A DNA stretch of 64,000 bases from Amoebidium appalachense (taxonomy: Eukaryota; Protista; Ichthyosporea): NCBI GenBank assembly GCA_963693365.1, contig CAVNZM010000004.1:6733093-6797092 (forward strand), in the 5' to 3' direction. The translations under genes were made by a program, and so were the position numbers. The first letter of the stretch is position 1; every line of letters begins with the position of its first letter. Positions 1 through 61,595 of the stretch are shown here, in pieces. The notes under the pieces are model-generated. The model was not told the origin of the DNA. It saw nothing but the letters and a program-made list of their open reading frames with translations, and made no database searches.

Positions 1-40
1 CCAATACAGGTGGGGCCAGAACACACAGGCTAGGGATTAC

Positions 41-4374
<4,334 letters not shown>

Positions 4375-8451: not shown

Positions 8452-18874
<10,423 letters not shown>

Positions 18875-19392
18875 TCTTCCTCGTCCCCACGAACCTTTCG
18901 CGTCTATGCTATGTCGTGAACTCTCACAGTGTATATAACCCCTAAGGAAACGCGAACGAAACAGCCCGTCGTGGAAGACCAATTAGCGAAAGCAGGCCAC
19001 CTTCTACAATGCCCACCGTTCCTATGTCTGTATACTCTAAACCCTTTTTTTGCGCAGACATACACTACAGCCTCTCTCACGGCCTCTTGGGTGTACACAC
19101 ACACCACACACACACACAGGCTCCTGAGCTATATAGCTGAACGAACTTGCGCACGCGCGCGTGTGCGCATGGCAAGTTGATTGCGCAATCACCGGAGAGC
19201 GCTAAAAATAGAAAATGCAAACCTGACCATATATGGTATCTGAAATCACTCGTTCATTGGTGTTTGATCATGGAATTCCCTACTACATCTGTTTAGGAAT
19301 GTGACTCTACTCTTGTATAGCAAGTCTGGCGTCTACGTCATGGTAGACTAGCCGGACATAATTATACATAGGTCAGCCAGAGCAGACTGCCT

Positions 19393-19490
19393 AAAAAAAT
19401 CAAGTCCCCAGCCAGAGGCTCGATTCCGCTCGAACATGGGTGCTATAGGTCCATAACCAAGTGCATACCCAGATCGGCCAAAAGGCATTG
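19393..19490 (-). other. tRNA-like Pol III cassette (possible tRNA-derived SINE head or tRNA pseudogene)
   Basis: Minus strand has A-box-like TGGCCGATCTGG, B-box-like GTTCGAGC and a T7 run; the acceptor stem does not pair well, so it is not an intact tRNA. Confidence 0.3.
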
Positions 19491-19726
19491 CCGGTGGGGG
19501 ACAGCGACTGCTGTTTATATTTTATGACACCTATACCATATCTACCCTTATGTGCGTGCTGGCTGGCGTGCTGACTGGCTAGTAGTGGCTACCCTCTTGT
19601 TCAACGTCTCTTCCCCAGGAGATAAAATCAATAGGTAAAAAAAGTTATAAATAAATGTGTGGTAAAACAAAGAAAGTGTTGGGAGATACAGCCTGCGTCA
19701 CAACGGCCATATCGGTCAAAAGTATG

Positions 19727-19799
19727 ATTGGTCACAAGCCAAGACAAGCCTTGCGCCGTTTGTGATTGGCTCGTTTTAGTCAAAGCCGGGACTATAAAA
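19727..19799 (+). promoter_or_regulatory. Inverted CCAAT boxes plus TATA box upstream of UBL gene 1
   Basis: ATTGG at 19727 and 19765; TATAAAA at 19793-19799. Confidence 0.45.
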
Positions 19800-20102
19800 C
19801 CTATGAGCTCGGTGTCTCCCCACCAGTTTACGATCAGTTTCAAATGATGATCATACACACCCATAGGCAGCTACATAGGCAGGCACTTTACACCCTGTGT
19901 CAGGCTTGCACAGTAGGCCACACATATGTGTAAAAGCTTACGCACAGCCTACCTTGCTTTGCATATAAGTAGACATTATTATACCACCGCACGCGATTCT
20001 GAGTCCCTCGCGAGGCCCGAGTACGGTGCAGGCTCTAGCGAATTTACTACCACTCGTGGTACACCTTTGCACATACATACACATCACATTTGCAAGCACA
20101 CC

Positions 20103-20594
20103 ATGAGGGTTAGGGTAGAACAAGCAGGCGGGCCGACCATGACTGTGGTTGTGGGCGACCACGCCACTGTGGGTGCGCTCAAGGCACGCCTGCACGAGTC
20201 CCACGGCATTCCCGCCAACCTGCAGACCATCATCTACAACAAGCGAAAACTCGCCGATACAGCGTCTCTCAACAAATACAACAACAACTCCGCATGTGCG
20301 AAAAACTGCGACGGCCAGCCTCAAACCGTCCCCGAGAACCTTGTCATATGCACGTCCCCTGCTGTTGTCTCTTACATGGGCATCGACACGCCTATTGTTG
20401 TGGATGCCGACGGTTATATCGTCGACCAACCACCCGTCGTTTCCAGTAGCAGCAGCAAGCTTGAGCTTCACGAGGACTTTGAAGTTGTGCGCCTGCCCGG
20501 ACGGGAGGCGCCTGCGCAAGAGGAGGAGACTTTGGTGGTCCAGATGGAGGTGAACTTGAAAGGGGGATGTTTTCCGAAATTTCTGTGCTTTTAG
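20103..20594 (+). CDS. Ubiquitin-like protein with internal insertion, LKGG motif and short C-terminal tail (CFPKFLCF); intronless, 163 aa
   Basis: MRVRVEQAGGPTMTVVVGDHATVGALKARLHESHGIPANLQTIIYNKRKLADTASLNKY aligns with ubiquitin residues 1-59; TLVVQMEVNLKGG aligns with TLHLVLRLRGG; paralog at 24596. Confidence 0.8.
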   Translation: MRVRVEQAGGPTMTVVVGDHATVGALKARLHESHGIPANLQTIIYNKRKLADTASLNKYNNNSACAKNCDGQPQTVPENLVICTSPAVVSYMGIDTPIVVDADGYIVDQPPVVSSSSSKLELHEDFEVVRLPGREAPAQEEETLVVQMEVNLKGGCFPKFLCF

Positions 20595-21344
20595 ACTTAT
20601 TATCGTGCTGAGATGTAAAAGTTTACGCAGGTGTGTGCGTTGTGTAAATGAGTTTTGTATTTTCCTGCAGCGTTGCCACGCTCCCCAATCTGGTGACTGC
20701 TCACTCAGGTTTACCAGTGGTGGTTGGGATTTGTATCCCCTTTTGGGGCCCTATTTTGTATCGGAGTTGTCTTGTCACCTTTGAGCTTACGTACAGAAAA
20801 AACTTTCTCCTGCCTGGACTCTGACTCGGAGGGGCAGAGACCCATGTAAGATTTGGAACTGTGTTTTTGCATTGAAGTATTACCTTAACACAACACAACG
20901 GCCCGAATTAGGTGATACCACTGGTTTTCCGTCCTTTATGAGATAATCTTTATACCACTAGCCAGGCTATACAAATATAGCTCTTTCGATTTCATACATG
21001 CATTGCATTTAGTGTCAGCCTGGCTGTGGATGGTGGTACTGAAGAGCCTTTAGGTTGGCTTCGAATGGCAATGCAACAAGGCCATACCTTTTTCATCGTA
21101 AAGTCTTCGCCGAAACAAAAGAATTATGTAACTGTACAGCGACCTTGTAAAGGTCTTTTGGAAATATAGTGAAAGAGGCCTTGTTTAGCACGAAAATAAT
21201 ATCGGATTTTTTGCCCCCGTTCCGACCCCTCTTCCCGCCCCCCACAACCCCCCCCCCCCCCCCCCCCCCCCCTCCCCCTTATCCACACACGCACACACGC
21301 ACACACACAAACACACAAACACAAACACAAACATTACACGGGCG

Positions 21345-21397
<53 letters not shown>

Positions 21398-22168
21398 ACA
21401 GAACTAACACAAACCACCACTGCAACAACGGCAGCACCCGAGCCCATTATCACGTAAAAAGACAGTTTTCTATATTTTAATACATTTTACAATTGGACTA
21501 TATATGCATTATTTGAAATTAATCAAAATGGGCACGGAAAAAAAATCCGATGATCTGTGCTGATTTGTTGTTGTCCCCCACCCCCCCTCTTACCACCCTC
21601 CCCCCCTTCCCCCCCCCCCCCCCCTTCCCCCGGGCCCCCCCAACACACACACACACACACGCACAACACGGAAGAACCACCACCACAGCAGCAGCAGCTC
21701 CCCAGCCTATTTCCATGACCATCCTTGCTTTATTCCCCTCCTTCATTCTCCCCCGTCCCCTTCTCTCCCATCTTGCCGCAGCTTCCCATGCAATGAGTAT
21801 ATCCCTGTCCCCTCCCCTGCCCCAATTCATGCGCCCAGAGTCATTTTTATCCTCCCCGCCCCCCATTCCCCCCCCCCCCACCATCCCTCTCCCCCCCCCC
21901 CCCCCCCCCCACTATCCCTTTCAGCCCCCCTCCGCCCCTTCCCACTTGTTCCCGCTCTCCCCTTCATATATATTCTGCACACACACACAGTTAACTCTGG
22001 GTCCTGTTCCTCCACCTCGCGTGTGACACCCCCCCCCCCCCCCCCCCCCCTTCCCCCCGAGGTGGGTCATAGCTGCTATAACATAAGAGAAACAGAGAAG
22101 CCAACAAATTTTGGGAAAGAAGGCGCCCACGCAAATAGTTTTTGCCGCCCACGCAAATAGTTTTTGCC

Positions 22169-23597
22169 AGGCTCCGTGGAGATCTCGTGGGTAAAAGGGC
22201 ACCAGTCCAACCAGAAACGACCGGGGCAGAGGATCAACCAGGCCGACAAGGCTGCCAACACCGGCAGAACCCTCCCCCTCCCCCCACCCCTCTACCCCCA
22301 GCCCCAGGAGGGGGCCGATACACCCTTCGACTACAAGGACACCAAATCCCCGGCAACATTCCCGGCGCCCTAAACCGGCTGACCAGGGATTACCTCAAAG
22401 AAAGGGCCGGCAAGACGGAGGCCATGTCCGTCCTCACCGACCCCCGTCTACTCCCAGCCGAGAGGGACCCCTTGAAACTCAACAAGGGCCCAGCCCAGGC
22501 ATCGATTCGGGCCGTAAAGGGCAACACTCGGAGCCTATCACTGGCTATAGGCACCCTACCGACCCTGGCCAGGCTACACCGAGACCACCCGACCATCGTC
22601 ACGGAACTCCAGGTGCCCCAGGTGCAAACAGCACCCGGAGACGACGGCCCACCTCTGGTCCTGCTCGGCACATGCCGAGGAAGCCCCCTCTCTGGCCACG
22701 GCCATCACGGCATGCATCCACAATGTGTTGTACTCCCGTCACCCCAAGACCCCCACGGCCCAACACCGGCAGATAGCCAACACGGCCACCTCCCAGTGTG
22801 AGTGGCTCAAGTGGATCGGAGGGCAGCCCGACCCACAAGACTCTGAGGACATCAAGTGGGTCACACGGGGTTTTTGCCCACGATCCGTGGCGGCCCCTAC
22901 TAACAGACCTCGGCACCACCGAGCCCACGGTACGGGCCATTTTAGCTAAAATAACCGTAGAGATGCAAACTTTTTTCTACACTAAGATATGGACACCACG
23001 AAACACGACCCTCCCACCCACACACCCTAAAATGCACAAACACAAACACTCAAACACCACACGTAAACAGAGACGTAGAGCCCCATCGAAACCCAAACCA
23101 CACACACCCACACAACCCACACACACACAGGCAGCATGCCCAACCTGCAGACACACACATAGAACAACCCAACCATGCAACCCTAGGCTCTTAGACCATT
23201 ACACCGTAGCCACCCAATACGTACAACACCACATACTATTAGGCAGCCACTCACCACCACAAGACCCCAACATACACTTTTCCCCCCCTTTTAAACCCAC
23301 CCACCCCACACCACACACTCCACCACTTTAGATGAACCAATGAGAGCCCAATATTCAAGTTTATTCGCCTGTTCTGAGTGGAGGGGAAGCCTGGTGCTAC
23401 CCACCGGCGTTGGCTGGGGTTAATACCCTGGGCAAAGTGTGTACATATAGTTAGGATTGTTATAGGTGTGTTAGTTTAGCTAATAGCATCGTAGCACCCT
23501 AGCTAGAGTACTGTCGGTGCTGGGTGGAAGACAGTAGTTCCCCAGGGGGGCCCCCAGGGGTACCTCCGGGAACAAAACGGGATAAAATAAACAATAA
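22169..23597 (+). mobile_element. 5'-truncated, frameshifted non-LTR retrotransposon (LINE): RNase H remnant, Cys/His knuckle, structured 3' UTR, A-rich tail
   Basis: ISWVKGHQ...INQADKAA (RNase H C-terminal motif, ~22180-22260); CPRCKQHPETTAHLWSC in a shifted frame (~22614-22665); tail GATAAAATAAACAATAAAAA; TSD AAATAG(T/C)TTTTGCC at 22155-22168 and 23598-23611; homologous 3' end at 61207-61595. Confidence 0.85.
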
Positions 23598-24279
23598 AAA
23601 TAGCTTTTGCCATCAAGCCTGCGTGCGCCCCATTCTTGATGGGCTAACGGCATTCACTGTCAGTAAGCAACAGTATTCATAATGTATTATTATATGCAAA
23701 CTTGGAAGCAGGCAAATGAATACACCAAGAGCACCCATCCATAGGTGGGCTCTGTTTGCGATAAATGATGGGATGGCTGCACATCAGGTCTTAGAAATGA
23801 ATTCGAATACCAAAATTGAACACGGTGATTTCCAGGGCAAGTCTGGAAAATCAATTGTGACACTGCCATCGGCACATCTGGATACTCAACCAAAAGCGGC
23901 GGTGCTGAATAATACTCTCAAAGAAAAAGCTTCATGAACTGTGGCACAGCCGGTCCATGGATGATGCAAAAGACCATCACACATGCCGGACCTACGTATA
24001 CTGTAGGTCATGCATGCGTGTCAAGATCATGAGATGGAGAGGATCCTTTTTTTAGTAGCATCACTGTTTTGGGGGGGCATGGCATTGACCGCATGGGTGT
24101 GAGCAAATTATTTGAAAGCGTGCGTCCCCGTGTCAACCGGTACCGCGGCACACAAAGGCGCATGCACAGACACACACATGCTTTCTGAGGCTCAGCTTGT
24201 CTGGACATGGGCGTGGGCATCACCCGTGTGACGTCACAGCATGACCTCATCTCTGTGTAATCTGTGCAGCCGCACGATG

Positions 24280-24374
24280 ATTGGCTGCTAACAATAGCAC
24301 CAATCAAAACACTTCCGCAAAAACTGCATGCAACTTCTGATTGGTTATTCATTTGGGATGCGCGCGTATATAAA
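24280..24374 (+). promoter_or_regulatory. CCAAT boxes plus TATA box upstream of UBL gene 2
   Basis: ATTGG at 24280 and 24340, CCAAT at 24300, TATATAAA at 24367-24374. Confidence 0.5.
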
Positions 24375-24595
24375 CGAGTGGTTCTAGCAGATGCACTCAT
24401 CAGATCAGTAACAACTCTTCGCAGCACACAAGCACAGAGAACAACTTCAGTATCAGCTTGCACAAAAAGTACCGCGTGTCAAATATCCAGCCGTCTCTTT
24501 TCACCCGAATCTTTTGGTCTTACATCTCAGTAACAACTTTATTCCTCAATAATCTAACTTGCCGTGTCTATTTATTCCCACATCCATCCGCAAAC

Positions 24596-25120
24596 ATGAG
24601 GGTCCGCGTTCAGCAGCATAACCTCGAGGCCATGACCGTTGTCATGGGCGAGAATGCCACCGTCGGCGACCTCAAAGCGCGCATACACGACTGCTACGGC
24701 ATCCCCGCAAACCTCCAGACCCTCTACAAAGGCACAAAAAGACTCTCAGACAGCACTCAGTTGGAAAAATGCAAGGGCAAAGATAGCGAGCAAACAGCAG
24801 TTTATGCACAACCAGACGGGGTTGTGTGTGCGGTACCGACAGCAACAGTGCGCATGGGGAGTGACAGCGCTTCAGCTACCACACGACCAGAGCAGCGAGG
24901 AGACACAAGAGATGAAGGGGTGGAGTTTGAGGTGGTGGAGCTTCCCAAAGTGGGAGGTGAGGAGGTTGGGGAGCAGGATGTTGTTTTGAACCTGCAGGTG
25001 GAGTTGAGGGGTGGGTGCTGTGGGGCATGTGTGGACTGTGTGTGCTGCCCGTGTGAGTGCCTGTGGGATATCATCACCTGTCCGTTTAGGTGCATTGCGG
25101 ACTGCTGCGGGTGCGACTGA
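24596..25120 (+). CDS. Ubiquitin-like protein with internal insertion, LRGG motif and 34-aa Cys-rich tail; intronless, 174 aa
   Basis: MRVRVQQHNLEAMTVVMGENATVGDLKARIHDCYGIPANLQTLYKGTKRLSDSTQLEK fits the ubiquitin fold; ends VLNLQVELRGG-CCGACVDCVCCPCECLWDIITCPFRCIADCCGCD*; paralog of 20103-20594. Confidence 0.82.
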   Translation: MRVRVQQHNLEAMTVVMGENATVGDLKARIHDCYGIPANLQTLYKGTKRLSDSTQLEKCKGKDSEQTAVYAQPDGVVCAVPTATVRMGSDSASATTRPEQRGDTRDEGVEFEVVELPKVGGEEVGEQDVVLNLQVELRGGCCGACVDCVCCPCECLWDIITCPFRCIADCCGCD

Positions 25121-25644
25121 GAGTACGGTTGTATATAGATAGATTCTTTTTTGCTCCGAGACTTTTGTGGTTTAACCACTGTATACCGTCATGTAGATAG
25201 ATATGCCGCCTAATATTAGTATTCAAGAAAAGACTTGGGCTTAATTTTGTAGATATTTTAACCACTGTACCGTGATAGACATGCAAGAAAAAGTACGGTT
25301 TGGAATTGAGCTCCAGGCTCGTCCGTTGATGTTATGATAGCCATACATGCCAAAGAGAAGTGTACCTGGTTCATAGGGCTTTTTTCCCCTATATTTGAAG
25401 AAACGGTGCCCGCTGGTCGGCAAGCTTTTGTAGAATAAATTGCGAATCTGAAGAATTTATTCGTGGCCAAATATTATTATCCGTACTATATCTCATTCCA
25501 CACAAAAGTACACGCACACACGCACGTGCACACGCACACGCACACGCACACACACACGCACACACACCCACACACACGCACACGCACACGCACACACACA
25601 CTCACACACACGTGCACCCACACACGCAGGGGCGCGCGCACACG

Positions 25645-25679
<35 letters not shown>

Positions 25680-25689
25680 ACGCACACGC

Positions 25690-25735
<46 letters not shown>

Positions 25736-25824
25736 GTGCATGCACACGCACGCAACGCGTGTACATGTACACGTACACACACGCATGCACGCATGCACGC
25801 ACACACATCACACATTGTGTGCAA

Positions 25825-25855
<31 letters not shown>

Positions 25856-26279
25856 AGACGAAGAAGAAGAAGAAGAAGAAGAAGAAGAAGAAAGGTAAGA
25901 TACTTCACAAATGATTTTTTGCTTGTTGTCATTCACTTAGCTCATTTTTTATTTTATTGTTATCATATGATTTTTGCATTATCGTAAAAAGTTTGGATCC
26001 GTTTTTTTATTGTTTTCAAGTTTACCAAGCCAATGCTGCACTGCAATAGTATTTGCTTTTTGCTTCTTGTAGACATTGTGTTTGTGAGCGTGTGTGTGTC
26101 GACAGAGAGGGAGGGGCGGGGAGACCCTGAGGGGGGTGGGAGGTGGTGGGGGGGGGGGGGGGGGGGGGGGAGAGAGGGGGGGAGGAGGGGGTTACTGAAT
26201 GGGGCCTCTCTCCAGCTCTGAAGCAGATTGGATTGTACAAATCTATTACTACGGTATGCCAAACAGATCATCAGTGTGT

Positions 26280-26310
<31 letters not shown>

Positions 26311-27629
26311 GGGAGGAAAGGGAGGGAGGGGGGGGGGGGAGGGGGGGGGGGCTATACTCTGGAGAATAGATTTGAAGGATATGCTGCCATGAATACAACA
26401 CTGCACCAAGCTCAACATAAGTGAAACATGCTAGGAGCAAGACGGCGGAACTTGAACCGAGGCAGGAAACCAGGTAGCATCAAAGCTGAAACAGAGTAGG
26501 GTAGAAACGTGTGCTCCTGGTGAAAGTTTACTAAAATGTAGCTTGCATGCACCAGTGTGTGTGCGCGCGCTTATCACCATGTGTTCGTGTGCGCGTTCGT
26601 GCGTGTCCGTGTGTGTGTGCACGTGTGCATACACATGTGCATATGCTTCTGTATGCGCGTGTGCTTGTGTGCGTGTGCTTGTGTGAGTGTGTATTTGTCC
26701 ATGCGTGTATGTGTGTGTGTGTGGGTGGTTGGGTGGGTGGGTGGGTGGTGTGTGGGTGTGGGTGTGTGATGTGTGTGGTGTGGTGTGCGTGTGCGTGTTT
26801 CTTCGGCGTGTGCGTGCGTGTGCAACGGTGCGTGCGTGTGCGTGCGTGTGCATGCGTGCATGTGTGTGCATGTGTGTCTGTGTGAGTGTGAGTGTGTGTG
26901 TGTGCATATGGGAGCATGCCTTGCGTACGTAAGGGGGGGTGTCACCGGTGTGTGTGGGTGTGTGTGTGTGTGGGCGCGTGTGTGCGTGTGTGCGTGTGTG
27001 CGTGCGCACGTGTGAGTATGTCCGTGTAGTGTGTCTGTGTGTATGTGTGCAGTCTGTGCATGTGTGCGTGTGCATGTGCATGTGCGCGTGTGTGGGTGTC
27101 TCTAATTTGGCTGGGTGTGTGCGCTTGGCATGCATGTGTGGAGCATTCAATATGAGTGCATGAATCATTGGATCTTGCGGGTGGACGTGTGTGTATGTAA
27201 TTCTTTGTGTATGTGTGTTTTTGTGCATTTTCAGAGCAGGAGGCGGGTCATTGCGTTCATGTGTGCCAGTGTTTGTGCGTGAGTGAACGATTTCAGCTTT
27301 TTAATGCATTACTCAGGATCTGCCTCCCTCTCTCCGTTGACAAACAGAGTGCGTGTTTTTGCGTAGTCATATCATTTTAGGAATGTGCATAGAAAAGCCC
27401 GAGCTTTTTCTCGTGTCCAGCTGCCATCGAATCAGAAGTGTTTGTGCGCACACGTGCACGCATATTATATTTGCCTGGCGCACTGTCGCCTCGGCCGCTG
27501 CACAAAAGAACATGATTTTGCGTACGCTTAACCACCAACTTTTAGGTCGCGGTAAACGAGTCAGAAGGAGGGGTTGAGGGGAGGGAGGTTGCATGTGAGT
27601 GTGATCATGAACCGAGAGAAGGCATGAAG

Positions 27630-31774: not shown

Positions 31775-35616
<3,842 letters not shown>

Positions 35617-39467: not shown

Positions 39468-40722
39468 ATGTCCACACCTACCCCCTGGACACCATCCCAA
39501 AACCTAATGCTGACCATTACAGGTCGGATCACCAGCACTCTAGGAATGGGTGGGTGTGTGGCAATACTTGCCCTGTACACCCGCACAAACCACCAAAGGC
39601 GCACAGACAGGCACTGTATCTTGGCTCTGCTCTCTGCCTGTCTGCTTCTCAGTACTTCTGGAAACTTCCTCGGCACGTGGCCCTTTGCCTCTTACACAGT
39701 GTGCTCCTTCCAGGTGCATGCCCTCCCACCCTTCCCCCCCCCCTCCCCCTCCCCCCTCCCCCTCCCCACCCGCCCTCCCCTCCCCCCCCCCCCCCCCCTG
39801 GCACACACACACACACACACATTTCCCCCACTCCCCACCCAACCACCCCTACGTCATCTCCTTTCTCCCATGCCTACCTCCTGTCTTCCCCCCAGCCCCT
39901 CCGGCCGCGTTCCCCCTCCTCTCCTTTTCTCTCCCGCATCCCCTTCCCCCTGCCCCCCTTTCTCTCATCCCCTCTTCCCCTCCTCTGACCTCTCCCCTTT
40001 CTGCCCTTCCAATACACCTTACTAACGGCTGCCACAGATCAATAATTACGTGATACGGCCCTAATATAAACACAATGACCTCCCCCTCCCCCTCCCCCCC
40101 CCCCCCCCCCTGCGGGGGAATCGACACTGCCTACCACGATCCCACTTTACACTGTGTAGTACCTTGCACCTCTCGTCTTTTACAAATGATAGTAATAAAA
40201 ACCTTCCCCCCTCCCCCCACCCTCCCCCCTCGGGCCCCTTGCCCTCCTATCTACCCTGCCTTTTATACTTGAGCCGTGCCACCTCCCTCCCCCCCCCCCC
40301 CCCCCCTCTCCCGCCCGCCTTCCGGCTGCCTGCCCTCACCCTATCCATTCGCTGCCCCCTCCCCTTTCCCCCACCCTACACACACACCAATTTCTTTTCC
40401 ATCCTCCAATCCTCCCCCATCCATCCCCCAATTACTCTCCAGGCACACAATGGAATACTCACACGTTCTGTCGATTTTTTTGCATGTGTGCACGCGCACA
40501 CACACACACACACACACGCGCGTGCGCGCGCCGCACACACACACACATGCATGCGGGCACACAGACACACACACATGCTACCAAGACGTGCACACACACA
40601 CACACACACTACACACACACATCCCCCCTCCCCCACAACACACACACATATCCTCCCCCTTCCCCTCCTCCTTTCCCACCCACCCCCTGGCCACTACCCC
40701 TCCCCCCTCCCCCCCCCTCCCC

Positions 40723-40753
<31 letters not shown>

Positions 40754-41468
40754 ACACAGGGATTCATCATCCAGTTTGCCACAGGCAATGCCCTCTGGAT
40801 CGCCCACCTCTCCACCCACATGATCCTGACAATCCTCTTTGGAATCCACCCTTACCGCCTACGTTTTTACCCGCATTTCGCCTGTCTCGTTTCGTTTGGA
40901 ATCCCCATCTCTACTGGCATCTATTTCTGGATGAAAGGAATGTACGCCCCCGCGGGTCCCTGGTGTTTTGTCGACGCAAAATACACAAAACACCGCCTCG
41001 GACTACTCTGTGTGGCGTGGGTGTGTGGTGGCTATGTTTTTCTCGTGTCTCTGCTCTTTCTCATCCGTGTACACCGCGAGTTCGTATATTTTCGACGACT
41101 GCGGATGTCCCCGTTTATAACTTCGGACGCCAACAAACGCATAGCGTATCAGGTCCTATCGTTTTGCTTCGCTTTTATCCTTATTTGGATACCCCCGTCC
41201 ATCCACCGCATACACAACCTTCTGCACCCGACCCGCCCATCCTTTCTCTTTTCGTTCCTCACCGTTCTAGTGACCCCCCTCGAGGGGTTTTTCAACTTTC
41301 TCGTTTACGTTTTCCCTACTTTGTATCGAAAATACAGCCAGGCAGGGCGGTTTGATCGGTTTGTTTTCGATCTGGACAACGCACCCACGGAGCCCTACGT
41401 GTTTCCACCCACTGTTACACCGAGGCACACAGGATCTGTGCTTCACAGCTCAATATTACAGGTGCAAG

Positions 41469-41500
<32 letters not shown>

Positions 41501-42134
41501 TACCCCCCCCCCCACCATCGGGGCTCCCCTACCCTTGCCCCCTCCCCCCCCCCCCCCCCCTCTCTCCCGCCCTCCTCCCCTATCCCCCCGGCCCCGGGCC
41601 AGTGTTCAAGCCCTTCTTTATTGTCGATGATATCGAATTTCTTACTTCAATTCCTGTGGGATATCTTTCCACAAACACGAGACTGACCTGTTAGTAGTAA
41701 CTAGTACATAGGGGTGTTGCAGTGATATATGGGTGCTTTTGAACCACAGGAAAACACAAAAATTTTCAATTAAATCTGTTGCTAACTAAGCTTATGCCTA
41801 TGCCCCAACCTGGGCCTAGTAAGGCCTTACCATAAAACGTACCCACTTCTCTAACCCTCTCTCTCTCTCTCCCCCCCAACCCCCCCCCCCCCCCCCTCCC
41901 TCCTCCCCCCCGTATCACACACACACGTGCGCGCAAACCCCCCCTCTCCCTCTCATCCTCCACTCCCATTGCCCGGTTCAATCCCACTCACAACCTACCC
42001 TCACCACCCCCTTCCCCTGCCGGAGCACACACACAACAGCAGGAACCCCCCGTTCCTCTTCATCCCTCCACTTTCTCCCTCCCGTTCACCTCCCCCCTCC
42101 CCTCCCCCCCCCTCCCCCCCCTCCCCCCCTCCCC

Positions 42135-47360: not shown

Positions 47361-50325
47361 ATGGCGTTCTTTTCAGACCCATCTTGCCTTTCTGCGCCAC
47401 AGCCTCTCTGCCGTGAGTGCCGGGTGGCGACGATCATACACGAGGACCACGAGTCTGGGGACGTGGTTTGTACACGCTGTGGTTTGGTGCTGTCGGAAAG
47501 GTAAGTTTATGGGGTGGATTAGGTGCAAAGTACTGTGGGGTTTTTTTAGGTGCAACAGAACATTTTTATGAGAACTAAACTTGACCCTTGGGGACTAACG
47601 GATGTGTGCTTTGCATAGCTCTGTGTATGTGCGTAGGGCGACACCAATTATTAGTGTGCATCAGTGCATGTGTCCATGGTTGGGTTGGATGTGTGAGATG
47701 CCTGGGAAACTCCAAACATGTGACTGTGTGTGCGTGATTTGTGTTGACATGCTTGTGCGTGCGTGGCGCGCGTGTGTATATGTGTGTGCACGTGTGCGTG
47801 TGTGCACGTGTGTGTGTTTGCCGCTTTACTGCAGTGAGTGTCTGTGCTGCTGCCGAGCAGATTTTGTCCCGAGCTCTACTGCCCCCCTCCCCCCCCCCCC
47901 CCCCCCCCCCCCTTAAACCCACCCCAACAACCACCACCACCACGACCTACGTGTGCATCTTAACACCCACCCACACACACACGTATACACTTCCGTTTCT
48001 TTTCTTCTTCCGTTTTTTTTTTTTGCCCAGTGCACGACATCGTCAAATCTAATACCACTCGAAATTTCCCCTTTGTTTCAGGTTTGCAGTCAGCAGAGAA
48101 AGGCAGCAAGAGCCTCAGACAGTGAGCAGCCACCACCCCTTTCTTGCAGTCACAGGGGGCTTGTATGCGGCACATCATCACACAGACACAGAGGGCGAAA
48201 TGGTGGTGGGTGCCTTTTCAACACACACAACAAGGAAGGGTTGCAAGATTTCTACGGCGAATGGTGGTGGATGTGTTGTGGCTACAGAGGGTGTACAGGT
48301 ATGTCTTTGTGACTCCTTATATGTTGCGGAGTAGTGGGGGTTGGAGGGGGGGGGGGGGGGGGGGGGGAGAAGGTACGGTCCGCGTGCGTGTGTGAGCGTG
48401 TGGTATGTGTGTCTATGTCTCTCTCTTTCTCTGTGTGTGTGTGTGTGTGTGTGCGCGCGCGCGGGCGTGTGCGTGTGTGTGTCTAGTTGTGCTATGTGTG
48501 AGGTGTGTATGTCCGTGTCCGTGTCTGTGTCTGTGTGTCTGTGTGTCTGTGGATGTGTGTGTCTTTTTGTTTATACCGAGAAATGGGGTTCTTCGTCAAA
48601 GTCACAACAGCCGCTTCCGGATTTCGTAAACTCTAAACCGAAATGGTGGATCTTACCTATTACGAGGTGGTGTTTACTTCTTTGCTTCTTAGCCCCCCGT
48701 CCTATCTTCCGCCCTCAGATCCCCCCTTGCTCCTTTTCCATTGTCGCTCCTTAGTTCAATATTCCCGCCTCTTATTCGTCCTCCCACGTATGTCTCTCTT
48801 CTTTTCCTTAACACGGACCAAGTCTAACACTCTTATCCCTCTCTCCCCCCTCCCCCCCCCCCCCCCTCCCCCCCCCCCACCCCCCCCCAACACACGCACA
48901 CAGGTTCTGGAGCTTCTAGGCCATCGACTCCATCTCCCCAAGGATGTGATTTATGCGGCAGGTACATTCCTTGCACATGTGGTATGTAGCGGTAGCGGGA
49001 GGGATAGAGGCAGGATCAAAGACACACATGCGCTTGCCACTGCGTGCCTGTTTGTGGTGTGTAGGGCCGCAGGTGTCTCACGTGCGTGGAGGGAGGTGTG
49101 CCACTCAGCGGGGGTGCGCAGGAGGCTGGCTGCAAGGTGCTACAAGACGGTGGTGGCGGTGTGGAGGGAAGCTTCTGGGCCCCAAGTGCGCGAAAACACG
49201 TGGTGTTCAGGTAAGGCGCACGTGTGTGTGTGCGCACACAAGCACATGTGTGCTGGGGACCATGAGGTGCCTGATAATGAGTGGTAGATTTAGGATGGTT
49301 GATTGGTTAGGATTTTGTGGTAGGGTAGAGTGGTTTGTTGTTTGGACAGGTGGCGGGGTGGTACCGTGGCAACGGTGGTATGTTTCTTTTTTTACGGTTT
49401 TTCAATTTGATTCGCAGTTTCGATTTCGCCGTTTTTCTCTAGTGGGGTTCAATTGTGATACGCTAGATGCTACATATGGTCCAAGGATAATCCAACGACG
49501 GACAATTCTTTATCGACCAAACATGGACAGTTTGTGTACATTTTCCCTCGTGGACTTGGCTCGAGCAGGGAGAGAGAGGGGGGGAGGGGGGGGGGGGGGG
49601 GGGGGATCTATATGTACCAGGGAGGCACAGATGATGGTGTCAGGGTGGCGGATTTCCTTATTTGGGCTGTTGGTGGCTGGACCCTCACATCCCTATGCGC
49701 CTGCCCAGAGTCTACACGGCACAGCCCTGAGCCGACAGGTAGATACTTCAGGGAGAGGCATGCAAGGCAAAGCAATCAGAGCATTTAAACTTTCTCTTGC
49801 TTTATATGAATACACAGGTGTGTACGACGTGAATATATAGAACAAGCAAAGTCAACAAACGAAGGAAAAAAGAAAAGGAGAAGGGGGAGATGTAGAAACA
49901 CAAGGGCCAAGCAAACACAGAACTAGAGATGAGCATCTGTTTGTTTGTTGGCCATTTGTGGGTGTCTGTGTCATGTTGGATCACATTGACGATGGCTGGC
50001 TGATAGGTGCTGGGCCAACGACAGCTGCACCATCGGGGGATTCTGTGGATACCATGCTGAAAGGGTGCATAGAATCCCCCCCCCACCCCCCCCATTTCGT
50101 CGTGTCCCCATCTCTCTAAACACACAGGCGTGCATACACGCACACCATATACTCCCTCACACGCGCGCGCGCACACATGCACACACACACACACACACAT
50201 CCCCGCCGTCTTTTGTTAAATGCACGTATATGGTTGTGCGCCCTCCCCCCCTCCCCCCGCCCCCCCCCCCCGTTAGGAGTGTTTGTTTACAAGTAGGCCT
50301 AGGTGCAAGCCCTGAAGAAATATGA
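47361..50325 (+). CDS. Divergent TFIIB-family transcription initiation factor (Zn ribbon plus cyclin repeat); 3' end uncertain
   Basis: Exons 47361-47500 (CRECRVATIIHEDHESGDVVCTRCGLVLSER Zn ribbon), 48082-48298 and 48904-49210 (RLHLPKDVIYAA...ALATACLFVVCRAAGVSRAWREVCHSAGVRRRLAARCYK, cyclin repeat 1). Tentative exons 50007-50064 and from 50277. An unspliced stop lies at 49287. Confidence 0.75.
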
Positions 50326-52742: not shown

Positions 52743-53416
52743 ACGCATGCACACACCGCTCTGTTGGCGACAGCTCCCTTGGAACCCATGCGGCATGTTA
52801 CCCGCCGGCGTAACATAACTCGGACTATCGGTTTGGCTTTTTTCAAGCCCAAAGCAATGGGTGATACCATATTTCCGGCTGACATCCGGGGGCATAGCTT
52901 TCCGTTCGAAGACGATAAAGTTCCGCCCTAGTAAGCGTGTTACTACCCTGCGGCGTGGGTCAAATCTCATATTTTCCCCTCTGATTGCGAATTCTGCGGC
53001 CTTTGGGACTTAATTCTTTTCAGCTGGTGTAGTATGTTAGCCAGGGAAGTATCGACTTAGGTATCGACGGGGGAGCTTCCTAGAAGCCCCGTCTCCTGAG
53101 TTCCTATCTATATTTTTCTTGCTTCTGCTTACTGCTGCAACTTTAACCCCCGGCCTTTCCCACTGCCCTTGCCTGCATAAGCAACCCTGCTCGTCTCTGA
53201 TCAAGACGGGTGACCTACTCATGTTCAAGTGAAACAGTATCTGAGTTGGGTTTCGTTAACGAGGGGAATAGGTCGAAACTCGGGTACTGTGGATGACGTG
53301 GGCCCCCCCTGAGGATGGGCTCTGCTTATTATGCATCCTCTTTATGTATGGCTTGCATTCTGCATCGTGTTATCCGTTTGTTCTTGTGTACTTCGTACTT
53401 TTTGACGCATTCAAAC
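52743..53416 (+). mobile_element. Longest copy of the poly(C)-associated repeat: ORF C-terminal remnant, 3' region with structured RNA, end at poly(C)
   Basis: Open frame 52743-52931 (..RNITRTIGLAFFKPKAMGDTIFPADI..*), loosely like the post-RT segment of Penelope-like elements (inference). ~52960-53416 is near-identical to 12486-12941 inverted and ends GCATTCAAA-CCCC. Confidence 0.8.
53177..53329 (+). ncRNA. Predicted conserved structured RNA module within the repeat
   Basis: Helices 53177-83/53323-29, 53190-96/53204-10, 53212-17/53269-74, 53218-24/53296-302 and 53234-47/53277-90, with compensatory changes in the copies at 1051-1209 and ~9890-9985. Confidence 0.6.
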
Positions 53417-59756: not shown

Positions 59757-60557
59757 TCACCAGCAGCGGGCGTACCCGTTGCCTGAGCGATAGAGCATGG
59801 AGATGCCGTTATCTGCTGCTGGGCCGCATGCCGCACTCCCCTGCAACGAATACTCAGCACCAAACACGGCCTTGCCCTGTGCAGCAAAGGGTTTGTACAC
59901 ATCGCACTGCTTGAAACGGGGGCACGATTCGTTGACTGCAAAGTCGAAGGCATCCACCAGGTCGGGGATGAGCTCAAATGCGTTCTTCAGACCAATGGCC
60001 ATGCCACGGCGATGAGCCTGGGAGGCCAACCACAGGGCATACTCCTTGGTCGCTGCCTTCTTGGTGGCCATACTTGTGCCCGGCACACACCCGTTGTATT
60101 CGAAGCAGTCCATGTTGTCTGCTTCGATGGCATCACAGTCCTTCGACTTTGCCATGTCCATGCGTGCGCCCATGACGCCCTGCAGGTCCTGCCAGTTCAT
60201 CACGTTGAACCAATGCTCGCCGTTGTACGGTGCCCACGTGCTGAGAGCTGACCCCGGCACCTGGTCGCGGTCTGGCCGTTTCTGCTCGAGGGTACCTGCG
60301 CTCATGTAGCAGACCACCCGCTGGCCGTTGCCCTTGTACTTCTGGATCTCCTCTTCGGAGGCATAGAAGGCGTCGACCTCCACCACGTCCACACCGTCCA
60401 TGTTTGAGCCAAACAGGTAGGCCTTGTTTGCCCACGTCAGGCCTGAGGGCCAGCTGCCACCGCGGCGTGCAATATGGTGGGCCTCGGCGGGCGCTGCGGC
60501 CACGGGGCTGAATGCCGCCATAACGACAAAAAGAGCTGACACTGTGAAAATGCTCAT
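59757..60557 (-). CDS. Secreted glycoside hydrolase family 114, intronless, 266 aa (copy B)
   Basis: Signal-peptide-like MSIFTVSALFVVMAAFSPVAA; mature part highly similar to copy A with EADNMD and FAVNESC motifs. ATG 60557 preferred over the longer ORF start because the TATA and CCAAT elements lie at 60831-61079. Confidence 0.9.
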   Translation of the reverse strand: MSIFTVSALFVVMAAFSPVAAAPAEAHHIARRGGSWPSGLTWANKAYLFGSNMDGVDVVEVDAFYASEEEIQKYKGNGQRVVCYMSAGTLEQKRPDRDQVPGSALSTWAPYNGEHWFNVMNWQDLQGVMGARMDMAKSKDCDAIEADNMDCFEYNGCVPGTSMATKKAATKEYALWLASQAHRRGMAIGLKNAFELIPDLVDAFDFAVNESCPRFKQCDVYKPFAAQGKAVFGAEYSLQGSAACGPAADNGISMLYRSGNGYARCW

Positions 60558-60830
60558 TTTCCCCTCGTGGTTAATGATATCTATGATAAAAAGTTGTTTG
60601 ATATTGCAAGGGTTGCCTAGATGGAATAATAATGATGATGGCAATAATTGGGCGCGGTCGCTGCTGAAAAAAATGTACGGACTTTGGACCGAGTGGGAGA
60701 AGTGAAGGTTCAAACGTCTGTTGGTTTTAACGATATGTGTGCATAAAAGTGCATAAAACTGCATCAGGATACGTATGGCATGTGCGAAGGTGTGCGCCCG
60801 ACTGAGTGGGACAGTGGGTCTTGGCGAGCG

Positions 60831-61079
60831 TTTATAAAGCCAACGCCAAAAAGAGCAGCCAATCGGAAATCCAATCCCAAATAACAAGGTAGGCACATGG
60901 CCTGGGAAGCCAATCACGAACAAGTATCATACTAGTATCTAACACAGCTGATTTGAAGCCAATCACCATGGTCTAAAGTATGCCTTGCCAACCTTGGCAA
61001 CCAGTTCCAATTTGAGTTGGGTCTGATTTCTTTGCCTGGACCCGTAGCCCGGGCGTCCAAGGCTACAGGGCGAGCCAAT
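60831..61079 (-). promoter_or_regulatory. TATA box plus six inverted CCAAT boxes upstream of GH114 copy B
   Basis: TTTATAAA at 60831-60838; + strand CCAAT at 60859, 60871, 60910, 60959, 61007 and 61075. Confidence 0.55.
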
Positions 61080-61206: not shown

Positions 61207-61595
61207 TTTTTTTATTTTATTTATTTTATCACGTTTTGTTCCCGGAAGGCCTTTTCGGGCCCTCTAGGGAAACTACCGTCTACCACACAGCACCGACAGT
61301 ACACTAGTTAGGTGCTATCTATGAGTTCAGCTACAAATCCTTCACAACCTAACTATAAGTACACACTTTGCCCAGGGCTACTACCCCAGCCACGCCGGCA
61401 GGAGGCTCCAGTCCTCCCCTCCATTCAAACCTAGCAATAAACGTTAACCGAGGGCTCACATTGGTCGATCTACAGTTTTGGGAAGTCCTAGGTGTTGTGT
61501 ATAGTGTTTAACATGGGTATGGGTGGATGATGGGGTGTGGTGGTGGTGGGGGGGGGTTGCTGCCTAACATTATGTGCTGTTGTACGTATGTTGTG
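61207..61595 (-). mobile_element. Short 5'-truncated LINE copy (3' UTR and A-rich tail), related to 22169-23597
   Basis: Reverse complement aligns with ~23211-23597 (CCCTGGGCAAAGTGTGTAC, GTACTGTCGGTGCTG, TCCGGGAACAAAACG); TSD ATATTACCTGTA at 61193-61204 and 61596-61607. Confidence 0.85.

What the first reader, a model, noticed from the sequence alone, without database searches (positions are those of the whole stretch)
20103..25120. Ubiquitin-like carrier genes ending LxGG and fused to variable Cys-initiated peptides: possible DUB-released peptide system
Seen: two neighbouring intronless paralogs share a UBL fold and keep L(K/R)GG, followed by unrelated tails that both begin with Cys: CFPKFLCF (8 aa) and CCGACVDCVCCPCECLWDIITCPFRCIADCCGCD (34 aa, 13 Cys). 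Established: LRGG-X bonds are cut by DUB/ULP proteases, ubiquitin fusions release ribosomal proteins this way, and an exposed N-terminal Cys can be an oxidation-sensitive N-degron or an acylation site. Inference: a conserved leader plus hypervariable core, like a peptide precursor, releasing metal-binding, palmitoylated (CYSTM-like) or cyclisable peptides and a conjugatable UBL.
Basis: partly seen in the sequence, partly recalled or inferred. Interest (0 to 1): 0.75.

Follow-up and report, generated by a model that had tools for sequence, protein, structure and literature searches.

The report
Looped ubiquitin-like proteins with cysteine tails
Two neighbouring genes of an unidentified eukaryote encode ubiquitin-like proteins, each with a long insert, a kept Gly-Gly motif and a different cysteine-started tail; they are likely cut at the Gly-Gly to part the domain from a probably lipid-anchored tail, which would be a new twist on known ubiquitin-fusion precursors, though no cutting has been tested.

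Summary
Two paralogous ORFs (20103-20594, 163 aa; 24596-25120, 174 aa; 34% identical) end in L(K/R)GG plus the stated tails. Single contigs of a probable RNA run cover each ORF with no splice joint.

An AlphaFold model of gene 2 still puts residues 1-140 on ubiquitin 1-76 (rmsd 1.3-1.5 A), so the GG ends the last strand after a large floppy loop. The G-G-C codons all changed synonymously between the paralogs. Of 17 equally diverged ubiquitin-like units elsewhere, none keeps GG. This favours a GG-reading protease.

Against: Arg42 and Arg72 are lost, so activation by the ubiquitin E1 is unlikely and ordinary DUB cutting is not assured. No orthologs or third paralog were found, so a 'hypervariable peptide family' is unshown. 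The tails fail the MUB and CYSTM definitions but look S-acylatable.

Best reading (0.5): cleavable UBL-fusion precursors with lipid-anchored Cys tails. The scan noted similar architectures in other genomes; I did not verify these. New variant of a known kind; interest 0.45.

The parts
19793..19799 (+). TATA-like box (TATAAAA) upstream of gene 1
   Evidence: sequence; about 40 bases before the start of the X1 contig; function inferred
19844..19933 (+). 29-codon upstream ORF in the likely 5' leader of gene 1; it overlaps an in-frame upstream ATG at 19926
   Evidence: role untested
20103..20594 (+). Gene 1 ORF, 163 aa (P0001)
   Evidence: covered without joint by X1 contig 19835-21217
20103..20288 (+). 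Gene 1 ubiquitin-like core, residues 1-62, gapless against ubiquitin 1-62
20289..20525 (+). Gene 1 insert, 79 aa, acidic, no family match
20526..20567 (+). Gene 1 presumed last strand plus LKGG (residues 142-155)
   Evidence: aligned to the modelled strand of gene 2; gene 1 itself not folded
20568..20591 (+). Gene 1 tail, 8 aa, hydrophobic, starts with Cys, 2 Cys
22299..23600 (.). Multi-copy repeat between the two genes (not part of the system as far as tested)
   Evidence: many divergent contigs lie on it; 23217-23600 is 74% identical to 61209-61589 on the other strand
24367..24374 (+). TATA-like box (TATATAAA) upstream of gene 2
   Evidence: sequence; function inferred
24596..25120 (+). Gene 2 ORF, 174 aa (P0002)
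   Evidence: covered without joint by X1 contig 24415-25385 and in three pieces by X2
24596..24781 (+). Gene 2 ubiquitin-like core, residues 1-62
   Evidence: pLDDT 89-96 over residues 1-60
24782..24973 (+). Gene 2 insert, 64 aa, acidic, predicted disordered loop before the last strand
   Evidence: pLDDT about 46-55 over residues 61-120; composition
24974..25015 (+). Gene 2 last strand plus LRGG (residues 127-140), structurally equal to ubiquitin 63-76
25016..25117 (+). Gene 2 tail, 34 aa, 13 Cys, starts with Cys, hydrophobic middle, net charge -4

Best explanation
Both genes encode ubiquitin-like fusion proteins that are likely cut right after the Gly-Gly by a cellular DUB- or ULP-type protease, which would separate a looped ubiquitin-like domain from a cysteine-started tail that is probably S-acylated and membrane-bound. 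Shown: the ORFs, the homology of residues 1-62, the inserts, the motifs, and synonymous-only change at G-G-C. Predicted: the late strand completes the fold and puts GG at ubiquitin 75-76 (gene 2 model). Inferred: cleavage, acylation and membrane binding. On this reading the tail is a lipid anchor before cleavage and a small lipopeptide with a new N-terminal Cys after it. The protease would be one that does not need Arg72.
For: (1) Model of gene 2 from an alignment whose 30 ubiquitin-like rows covered only residues 1-61: a strand forms at 128-135. Model 1..140 superposes on ubiquitin 1..76 with 74-75 aligned residues, rmsd 1.3-1.5 A, Z 11.2-11.5. (2) The Gly, Gly and Cys codons differ between the paralogs only synonymously (GGG/GGT, GGA/GGG, TGT/TGC). 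dN/dS is 0.39/1.37 in the core and 0.57/1.08 in the 31 codons up to GGC, while the insert has dN 0.94. (3) Control: among 247 gapless ubiquitin-like units from the search hits, GG is kept in 0 of 17 under 40% identity to ubiquitin and in 8 of 84 at 40-55%. These two proteins are at 18/59 and 17/59 and both keep LxGG. (4) Cys after GG is uncommon elsewhere: 1 of 36 short extensions in the hits and 2 of 77 viral ubiquitins. (5) The tails are hydrophobic (GRAVY 1.46 and 1.09) and C-terminal. Yeast CYSTM/CYSPD tails bind membranes by palmitoylation (PMC10840359, passages). (6) Precedent for GG cleavage of divergent domains: SDE2 by USP5 (PMC13572447, first part of section 8 and passages).
Against: Ubiquitin's Arg72 position holds Asn or Glu and Arg42 holds Thr. 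In SDE2 the equivalent R73A change abolished cleavage, so USP5-like recognition is doubtful. The strand before GG has no significant sequence match to ubiquitin's last strand on its own (1051 and 747 of 2000 shuffles reach it). With GG included, only gene 2 is significant (3 of 2000; gene 1 520 of 2000). The model is middling (mean pLDDT 67, pTM 0.55; last strand 72-78), may be drawn by the LRGG motif itself, and gene 1 was not folded. The control units come from tandem poly-UBL proteins, are related to one another, and are few in the lowest bin. The two genes are one ancestral event, not two. S-acylation cannot be read from sequence: the paper read states there is no consensus.
Confidence: 0.5

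Rival explanations
1. The proteins are not cut: they stay whole as membrane-tethered ubiquitin-like adaptors that work like MUB/UBL3, with the Cys tail as lipid anchor and GG as a hinge or a leftover.
For: Loss of Arg42 and Arg72. Hydrophobic C-terminal Cys clusters. Acylation of the Cys right after GG could block a protease (inference). MUBs show that a ubiquitin fold can work as a lipid-anchored adaptor (PMC4996978, passages).
Against: MUBs lack GG, whereas LxGG is kept here with synonymous-only change, and diverged units usually lose it (0 of 17, 8 of 84). Neither tail ends in a canonical CaaX.
Confidence: 0.25
2. Cleavage releases soluble bioactive peptides from a conserved carrier: a metallothionein-like metal binder from gene 2 and a short thiol peptide from gene 1, as members of a wider variable family.
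For: The gene 2 tail has 13 Cys in 34 residues with CC, CxC and CxxC spacings and net charge -4. The tails show no similarity to each other. Nematode UBCEP12 is processed in planta into ubiquitin and a C-terminal extension that suppresses immunity (PMC4312480, passage).
Against: Only two members; no further copy in 64 kb; no orthologs found. The tail holds Trp, Phe, Leu, Ile and Val, unlike typical metallothioneins (recalled). No metallothionein Pfam or PDB match. No N-terminal hydrophobic signal is visible in the sequences, so the peptides would stay in the cytosol. No modifying enzyme gene was recognised among the 6 other ORFs scanned.
Confidence: 0.13
3. These are pro-forms of a lineage-specific ubiquitin-like modifier: the tail is a cap that is removed, and the looped domain is then conjugated to targets by its own E1.
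For: GG at the right structural position. Gene 1's tail is only 8 aa, in the range of pro-extensions of known modifiers (recalled). Residue 72 selects the E1 and is Glu/Gln in SUMO (PMC12355090, passages); gene 2 has Glu.
Against: A 34-aa tail with 13 Cys is elaborate for a disposable cap. Arg42 and Arg72, which contact UBA1, are lost, and Ile44 is Tyr in gene 2. No dedicated E1 could be sought (no genome).
Confidence: 0.12

Closest known systems
Ubiquitin-ribosomal protein precursors (UBA52/eL40, UBA80/eS31) and FUBI-eS30
   Same: N-terminal ubiquitin fold ending LxGG fused in frame to a short downstream product; DUB processing of these is established (PMC13572447 passages).
   Different: The carrier is about 30% identical to ubiquitin with a 64-79 aa loop insert and no Arg72; the tails match no ribosomal protein or any Pfam family.
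SDE2 (cleavable ubiquitin-like domain, cut by USP5 in human; exposes an N-terminal Lys degron)
   Same: Divergent UBL cut at a kept GG, with a specific conserved residue exposed after it (Lys there, Cys here).
   Different: No sequence link found; the SDE2 C-part is a 41 kDa domain, here 8 or 34 aa; SDE2 needs Arg73, which these proteins lack.
Cyst-nematode ubiquitin carboxyl extension proteins (GrUBCEP12)
   Same: Ubiquitin-type carrier processed to free a short C-terminal peptide (PMC4312480 passage).
   Different: Those are secreted, with a signal peptide, and release free ubiquitin; here there is no visible signal peptide, the carrier is divergent and looped, and the tails are Cys-started.
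MUB / UBL3 membrane-anchored ubiquitin-fold proteins
   Same: Ubiquitin fold followed by a C-terminal Cys tail that could carry lipid.
   Different: MUBs have no GG and end in a prenylated CaaX; these have GG and no canonical CaaX.
CYSTM / CYSPD proteins (Pfam PF12734, accession recalled)
   Same: Cys-rich, hydrophobic module at the extreme C-terminus of a small protein; candidates for S-acylation.
   Different: No run of 3-4 Cys, no Pro/Gln-rich head, a UBL head instead, and no Pfam match. The CYSTM paper never mentions ubiquitin (0 occurrences).

Membership tests
Ubiquitin-fold (beta-grasp) proteins | Sequence or profile match to the ubiquitin family | tested here: met
   PF00240 30.7 and 30.1 bits against a cut-off of 25.4; gapless 1-62 to ubiquitin; hhalign 98%
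Ubiquitin-fold (beta-grasp) proteins | Complete fold including the last strand | tested here: met
   Predicted for gene 2 only: model 1..140 on ubiquitin 1..76, Z 11.2-11.5, rmsd 1.3-1.5 A, 74-75 aligned; gene 1 by alignment
Cleavable UBL-fusion precursors (UBA52/UBA80, FUBI, SDE2, UBCEP) | LxGG at ubiquitin 73-76 followed in frame by more protein | tested here: met
Cleavable UBL-fusion precursors (UBA52/UBA80, FUBI, SDE2, UBCEP) | Arg at the position of ubiquitin 72 (needed for SDE2 cleavage by USP5) | tested here: not met
   Asn in gene 1, Glu in gene 2; requirement from PMC13572447 section 8; not known to bind every protease
Cleavable UBL-fusion precursors (UBA52/UBA80, FUBI, SDE2, UBCEP) | Actual proteolysis after GG | not testable with these tools
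   needs protein-level data
Ubiquitin itself / substrates of UBA1 | Arg42, Arg72, Arg74 and Ile44 patch | tested here: not met
   Thr42 in both; Asn/Glu72; Lys/Arg74; Ile44/Tyr44; roles from PMC12355090
Type I UBL modifiers with their own E1 | Cognate E1 and conjugation to targets | not testable with these tools
   no genome held
MUB / UBL3 | No C-terminal GlyGly motif | tested here: not met
   GG present in both; definition from PMC4996978
MUB / UBL3 | C-terminal CaaX box | tested here: not met
   Gene 1 has its last Cys second from the end. Gene 2 has a Cys fourth from the end but followed by Gly, Cys, Asp, not two aliphatic residues (CaaX rule recalled)
CYSTM / CYSPD | Patch of 3-4 consecutive cysteines | tested here: not met
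   longest run is 2; definition from PMC2804304
CYSTM / CYSPD | Module at the extreme C-terminus | tested here: met
CYSTM / CYSPD | Pro/Gln-rich disordered head (most members) | tested here: not met
   the head is a UBL
CYSTM / CYSPD | Match to the Pfam model | tested here: inconclusive
   no family at E up to 10 for the tail pieces; short Cys-rich queries can be lost in HMMER's filters
CYSTM / CYSPD | Palmitoylation-dependent membrane binding | not testable with these tools
   needs acyl-biotin exchange
Metallothioneins | About a third Cys in CC/CxC/CxxC spacings (recalled) | tested here: met
   gene 2 tail 13 of 34; not true of gene 1's tail
Metallothioneins | Near absence of aromatic and large hydrophobic residues (recalled) | tested here: not met
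   the tail holds Trp, Phe, Leu, 3 Ile and 2 Val
RiPP-like leader/core precursor families | Many paralogs with constant leader and variable core, plus dedicated maturation enzymes | tested here: inconclusive
   2 genes, no third in the window; genome not held

The most novel reading that the evidence does not exclude
A eukaryotic system in which a dedicated, non-conjugating looped UBL serves as a cleavable carrier for interchangeable Cys-initiated peptides. A GG-specific protease frees an N-terminal Cys that Met-initiated translation would not expose in the same regulated way, and acylation or oxidation of that Cys gates both cleavage and the fate of the released membrane or metal-binding peptide. 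The design may have arisen more than once across eukaryotes and giant viruses.
Probability: 0.2. Interest if true: 0.75.

Novelty: new variant of a known kind. Interest (0 to 1): 0.45.

Why it matters
If cleavage is real, it extends ubiquitin-fusion processing from ribosomal proteins and SDE2 to small Cys-started lipopeptides. It would also give a simple switch for releasing a UBL from a membrane. The proteins would show that the ubiquitin fold tolerates a natural 64-79 residue insert just before its last strand, and that a GG site without Arg72 can be under selection. The case is limited to two genes in one unidentified organism with no orthologs found, which caps its reach for now.

Tried and rejected
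No genome was held, so paralogs outside the window could not be sought.

Ortholog searches, all blank:
- Word-index protein searches with P0002 (32 candidates, 0 at E<=0.001), P0001 (37 candidates, 0 at E<=1) and the last 45 residues of P0002 (no candidate).
- Exact look-up, 0 of 3 sequences.
- ESM Atlas, whole protein and residues 125-174: no usable hit.
- phmmer of 1.84 billion representatives: 224 hits at E<=0.001. The 150 listed are generic poly-UBL proteins, nearly all matched over the N-terminal core. None has a Cys-started, Cys-rich terminal tail like gene 2's after its last L/I/V/M-R/K/Q-GG; two (P0090, P0104) have Cys there.
- Viral contigs: 0 of 6 and 0 of 19 candidates.
- Metagenome contigs: 2 of 225 candidates, both the same UBL gene fused to a collagen-like protein, not orthologs.
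- A DNA pattern for the GG junction gave 10 viral loci, 0 with a UBL.
These blanks do not show absence.

Ideas rejected:
- Second, degenerate UBL in residues 63 onward (a di-UBL like ISG15): no profile match.
- Tail as a TG-microsatellite artefact.
- Intron removing the insert or changing the tails: no joint seen.

Uninformative results:
- Single-sequence fold, pLDDT 33; the tail stays under pLDDT 50 in the better model.
- Tail against PDB sequences: one hit at E 7.9, chance level. NCBIfam: only weak hits far under cut-off. Rfam: 0 in 18000-27000.
- No listed sequencing run is on record as RNA. Unique stretches beside the genes (19432-19647, 23752-24399) had no cover in any run; this fits RNA but is not counted as evidence. 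No spliced gene was laid as a positive control.
- No complex prediction was run: the organism's proteases are unknown.


Full report
Setting. The window is eukaryotic and rich in CA, poly-C and poly-G repeats. It holds an aconitase spread over several frames, two cAMP-receptor-like GPCR ORFs, a TFIIB-repeat ORF and a GH114 ORF (5 of 6 ORFs scanned had a Pfam hit). No whole genome is held, and the organism was not identified.

The observation. Both ORFs are present as described. Gene 1 is 20103-20594, 163 aa, with LKGG and an 8-aa tail. Gene 2 is 24596-25120, 174 aa, with LRGG and a 34-aa tail with 13 Cys. They are paralogs at 34% identity by BLASTP. L[KR]GG occurs 16 times in 127,996 six-frame positions of the window and L[KR]GGC twice, in these two genes; tblastn finds no third copy. 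Because the genome is full of TG repeats that read as Cys-Val, I tested whether the Cys-rich tail is an artefact. Of 55,295 stop-free 34-codon windows, 1290 have 13 or more Cys. Only 2 of these have 12 or more residue types, both on this tail, and the tail uses 8 TGC and 5 TGT codons. It is a real coding feature.

Expression and splicing. Three runs of one sample were listed, none on record as RNA, all guessed to be. In run X1 one contig covers 19835-21217 and one covers 24415-25385, both with no difference, gap or joint. Run X2 covers most of gene 2 in three pieces, also without differences. Each X1 contig starts 40-50 bases after a TATA-like box. The inserts and the GG-tail junctions therefore exist in unspliced form. 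Transcription is likely but rests on the guess that the run is RNA, and contigs cannot exclude rare splice forms.

Ubiquitin homology is confined to residues 1-62, which align without gaps to ubiquitin 1-62 (hhalign 98%). The rest has no match to a profile of 355 ubiquitin-like units, which rules out a detectable second UBL. The GG lies at 154-155 and 139-140, after inserts of 79 and 64 acidic residues. Whether this GG is ubiquitin's GG was thus an open question. By sequence alone the answer is mixed. A 14-column profile from 33 GG-ending units picks the right segment in both proteins, but significantly only in gene 2 (3 of 2000 shuffles; gene 1 520 of 2000), and not at all without the LxGG columns. 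A single-sequence fold failed. I then folded gene 2 with an alignment in which 30 ubiquitin-like rows covered only residues 1-61, so that they carried no information on the last strand. The model has pLDDT 89-96 over residues 1-60, about 50 over the insert, 72-78 over 121-140 with a strand at 128-135, and mostly under 50 in the tail. Structural alignment maps model residues 1..140 on ubiquitin 1..76 with 74-75 aligned residues, rmsd 1.3-1.5 A and Z 11.2-11.5 (Foldseek agrees). The insert is therefore predicted to be a floppy loop before the last strand, and GG is predicted at the canonical cleavage position. Caveats: AlphaFold may be drawn by LRGG itself, and gene 1 was not folded.

Is the GG under selection? 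The Gly, Gly and Cys codons all differ between the paralogs at the third base only. dN/dS is about 0.28 in the core (59 codons) and 0.53 in the 31 codons ending at GGC, while the insert has dN 0.94 with saturated dS (small samples). As a control I used the 247 gapless 76-residue units among the 355 (from 664 domain hits, thinned at 75% identity). GG near the end is kept in 0 of 17 units under 40% identity to ubiquitin, 8 of 84 at 40-55%, 17 of 136 at 55-75% and 2 of 10 above that. The two window proteins are about 30% identical to ubiquitin and both keep LxGG. Cys as first residue after GG is rare elsewhere: 1 of 36 short extensions among the 150 hits and 2 of 77 viral ubiquitins. The control units come from tandem poly-UBL proteins and are not independent, and the two genes share one ancestor, so this is suggestive, not a formal test.

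Evidence against a simple ubiquitin-like reading. Position 42 is Thr in both proteins, position 72 is Asn or Glu, position 44 is Ile or Tyr, and Gly47 is lost. Arg42, Arg72 and Arg74 contact UBA1, and residue 72 selects the E1 (PMC12355090, passages). In SDE2 the R73A change, equivalent to Arg72, abolished cleavage (PMC13572447, first part of section 8). The domain is therefore unlikely to be activated by the ubiquitin E1, and a cutting enzyme would have to tolerate a non-Arg residue there. NEDD8 with Ala72 and SUMO with Glu/Gln are processed by their own proteases (recalled), so such enzymes exist.

The tails. They match no Pfam family, no solved structure beyond chance and not each other. 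Both start with Cys, have a Cys second from the end and are hydrophobic (GRAVY 1.46 and 1.09). The longer tail has an amphipathic middle and net charge -4. They fail the MUB definition (no GG, CaaX end; PMC4996978, passages). They also fail the CYSTM definition (3-4 consecutive Cys, Pro/Gln head; PMC2804304, parts 1-2 of 3 read). They resemble CYSPD tails in position and make-up, and those bind membranes through palmitate (PMC10840359, passages). A metallothionein-like role for the 34-mer is possible from its Cys share but fits its aromatic and aliphatic residues less well (recalled criteria).

Relatives. No ortholog was found in any collection searched. The claim of a conserved carrier with hypervariable cores rests on two genes. 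Earlier notes of this scan describe similar architectures on other DNA: a 76-aa UBL with GG and a Cys-rich membrane tail in oomycetes and diatoms (e1-9584885), ubiquitin with a metallothionein-like tail in giant viruses (e1-7854389), and fungal LRGG-Cys proteins without a UBL (e1-7124090, e1-7522841). These are unchecked AI notes. I could not compare sequences, and my sample of 80 viral ubiquitins did not contain such a tail.

Mechanism. Most likely (0.5), the proteins are cut after GG by a cellular DUB- or ULP-type protease, and the Cys tails are S-acylated, so that cleavage parts a soluble looped UBL from a small membrane lipopeptide with a new N-terminal Cys. The ORFs, homology, inserts and codon pattern are shown; the fold is predicted; cleavage, acylation and localisation are inferred. 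The rivals are an uncleaved MUB-like adaptor (0.25), release of soluble metal-binding or otherwise bioactive peptides from a larger family (0.13), and a pro-modifier with a disposable cap (0.12).

Known and new. Cleavable UBL fusions are known: ubiquitin-ribosomal precursors, FUBI and SDE2, and nematode UBCEP12 (PMC4312480, passage of a review; the primary paper was not read). I found no paper on a UBL-GG fused to a Cys-started Cys-rich tail in five searches aimed at it: (5 papers listed; 6; 0; 0; 1), judged from listings and abstract starts only. The library lacks most subscription journals, and supplements were not examined. Verdict: a real feature, a new variant of a known kind, interest 0.45; the boldest reading has probability 0.2 and would merit 0.75.

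Noticed in passing
window 19844-19933 and 19926: Gene 1's likely leader holds a 29-codon upstream ORF that overlaps an in-frame ATG; use of that ATG would add 59 residues starting Met-Cys. Gene 2's leader has no ATG. Possible translational control of gene 1.
   Followed up: partly
window 22299-23600, and 61209-61589: Multi-copy repeat between the two genes, with many divergent contigs in the runs and a second 74% copy of its 3' part elsewhere in the window; no Pfam or Rfam match. Possibly a mobile-element remnant.
   Followed up: partly
window 33024-34631 (-) and 40199-41683 (+): Two divergently oriented ORFs with weak matches to the slime-mould cAMP receptor family, apparently paralogous GPCRs.
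   Followed up: partly
window 59760-60926 (-): GH114 glycoside hydrolase ORF with a signal-peptide-like start inside the frame; E 2.7e-56.
   Followed up: partly
window 33-3978 (-): Aconitase gene in several exons; one ORF piece matches PF00330. It would be a good splicing control for the runs.
   Followed up: partly
window 48637-49284 (+): ORF with a TFIIB repeat match.
   Followed up: no
window 12646-12861 (+) and 53040-53255 (-): Two near-identical copies of a roughly 215-base stretch on opposite strands, seen as almost the same translation.
   Followed up: no
L002:2929-3828: Metagenome contig gene in which a UBL ending in GG is fused to a collagen-like repeat protein.
   Followed up: no
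L055, L056, L065, L067, L073, L076, L080, L091 (after base 628): Eight of 77 viral ubiquitins are fused to a 53-61 aa basic tail that looks like an HMG box (resemblance recalled, not tested).
   Followed up: no
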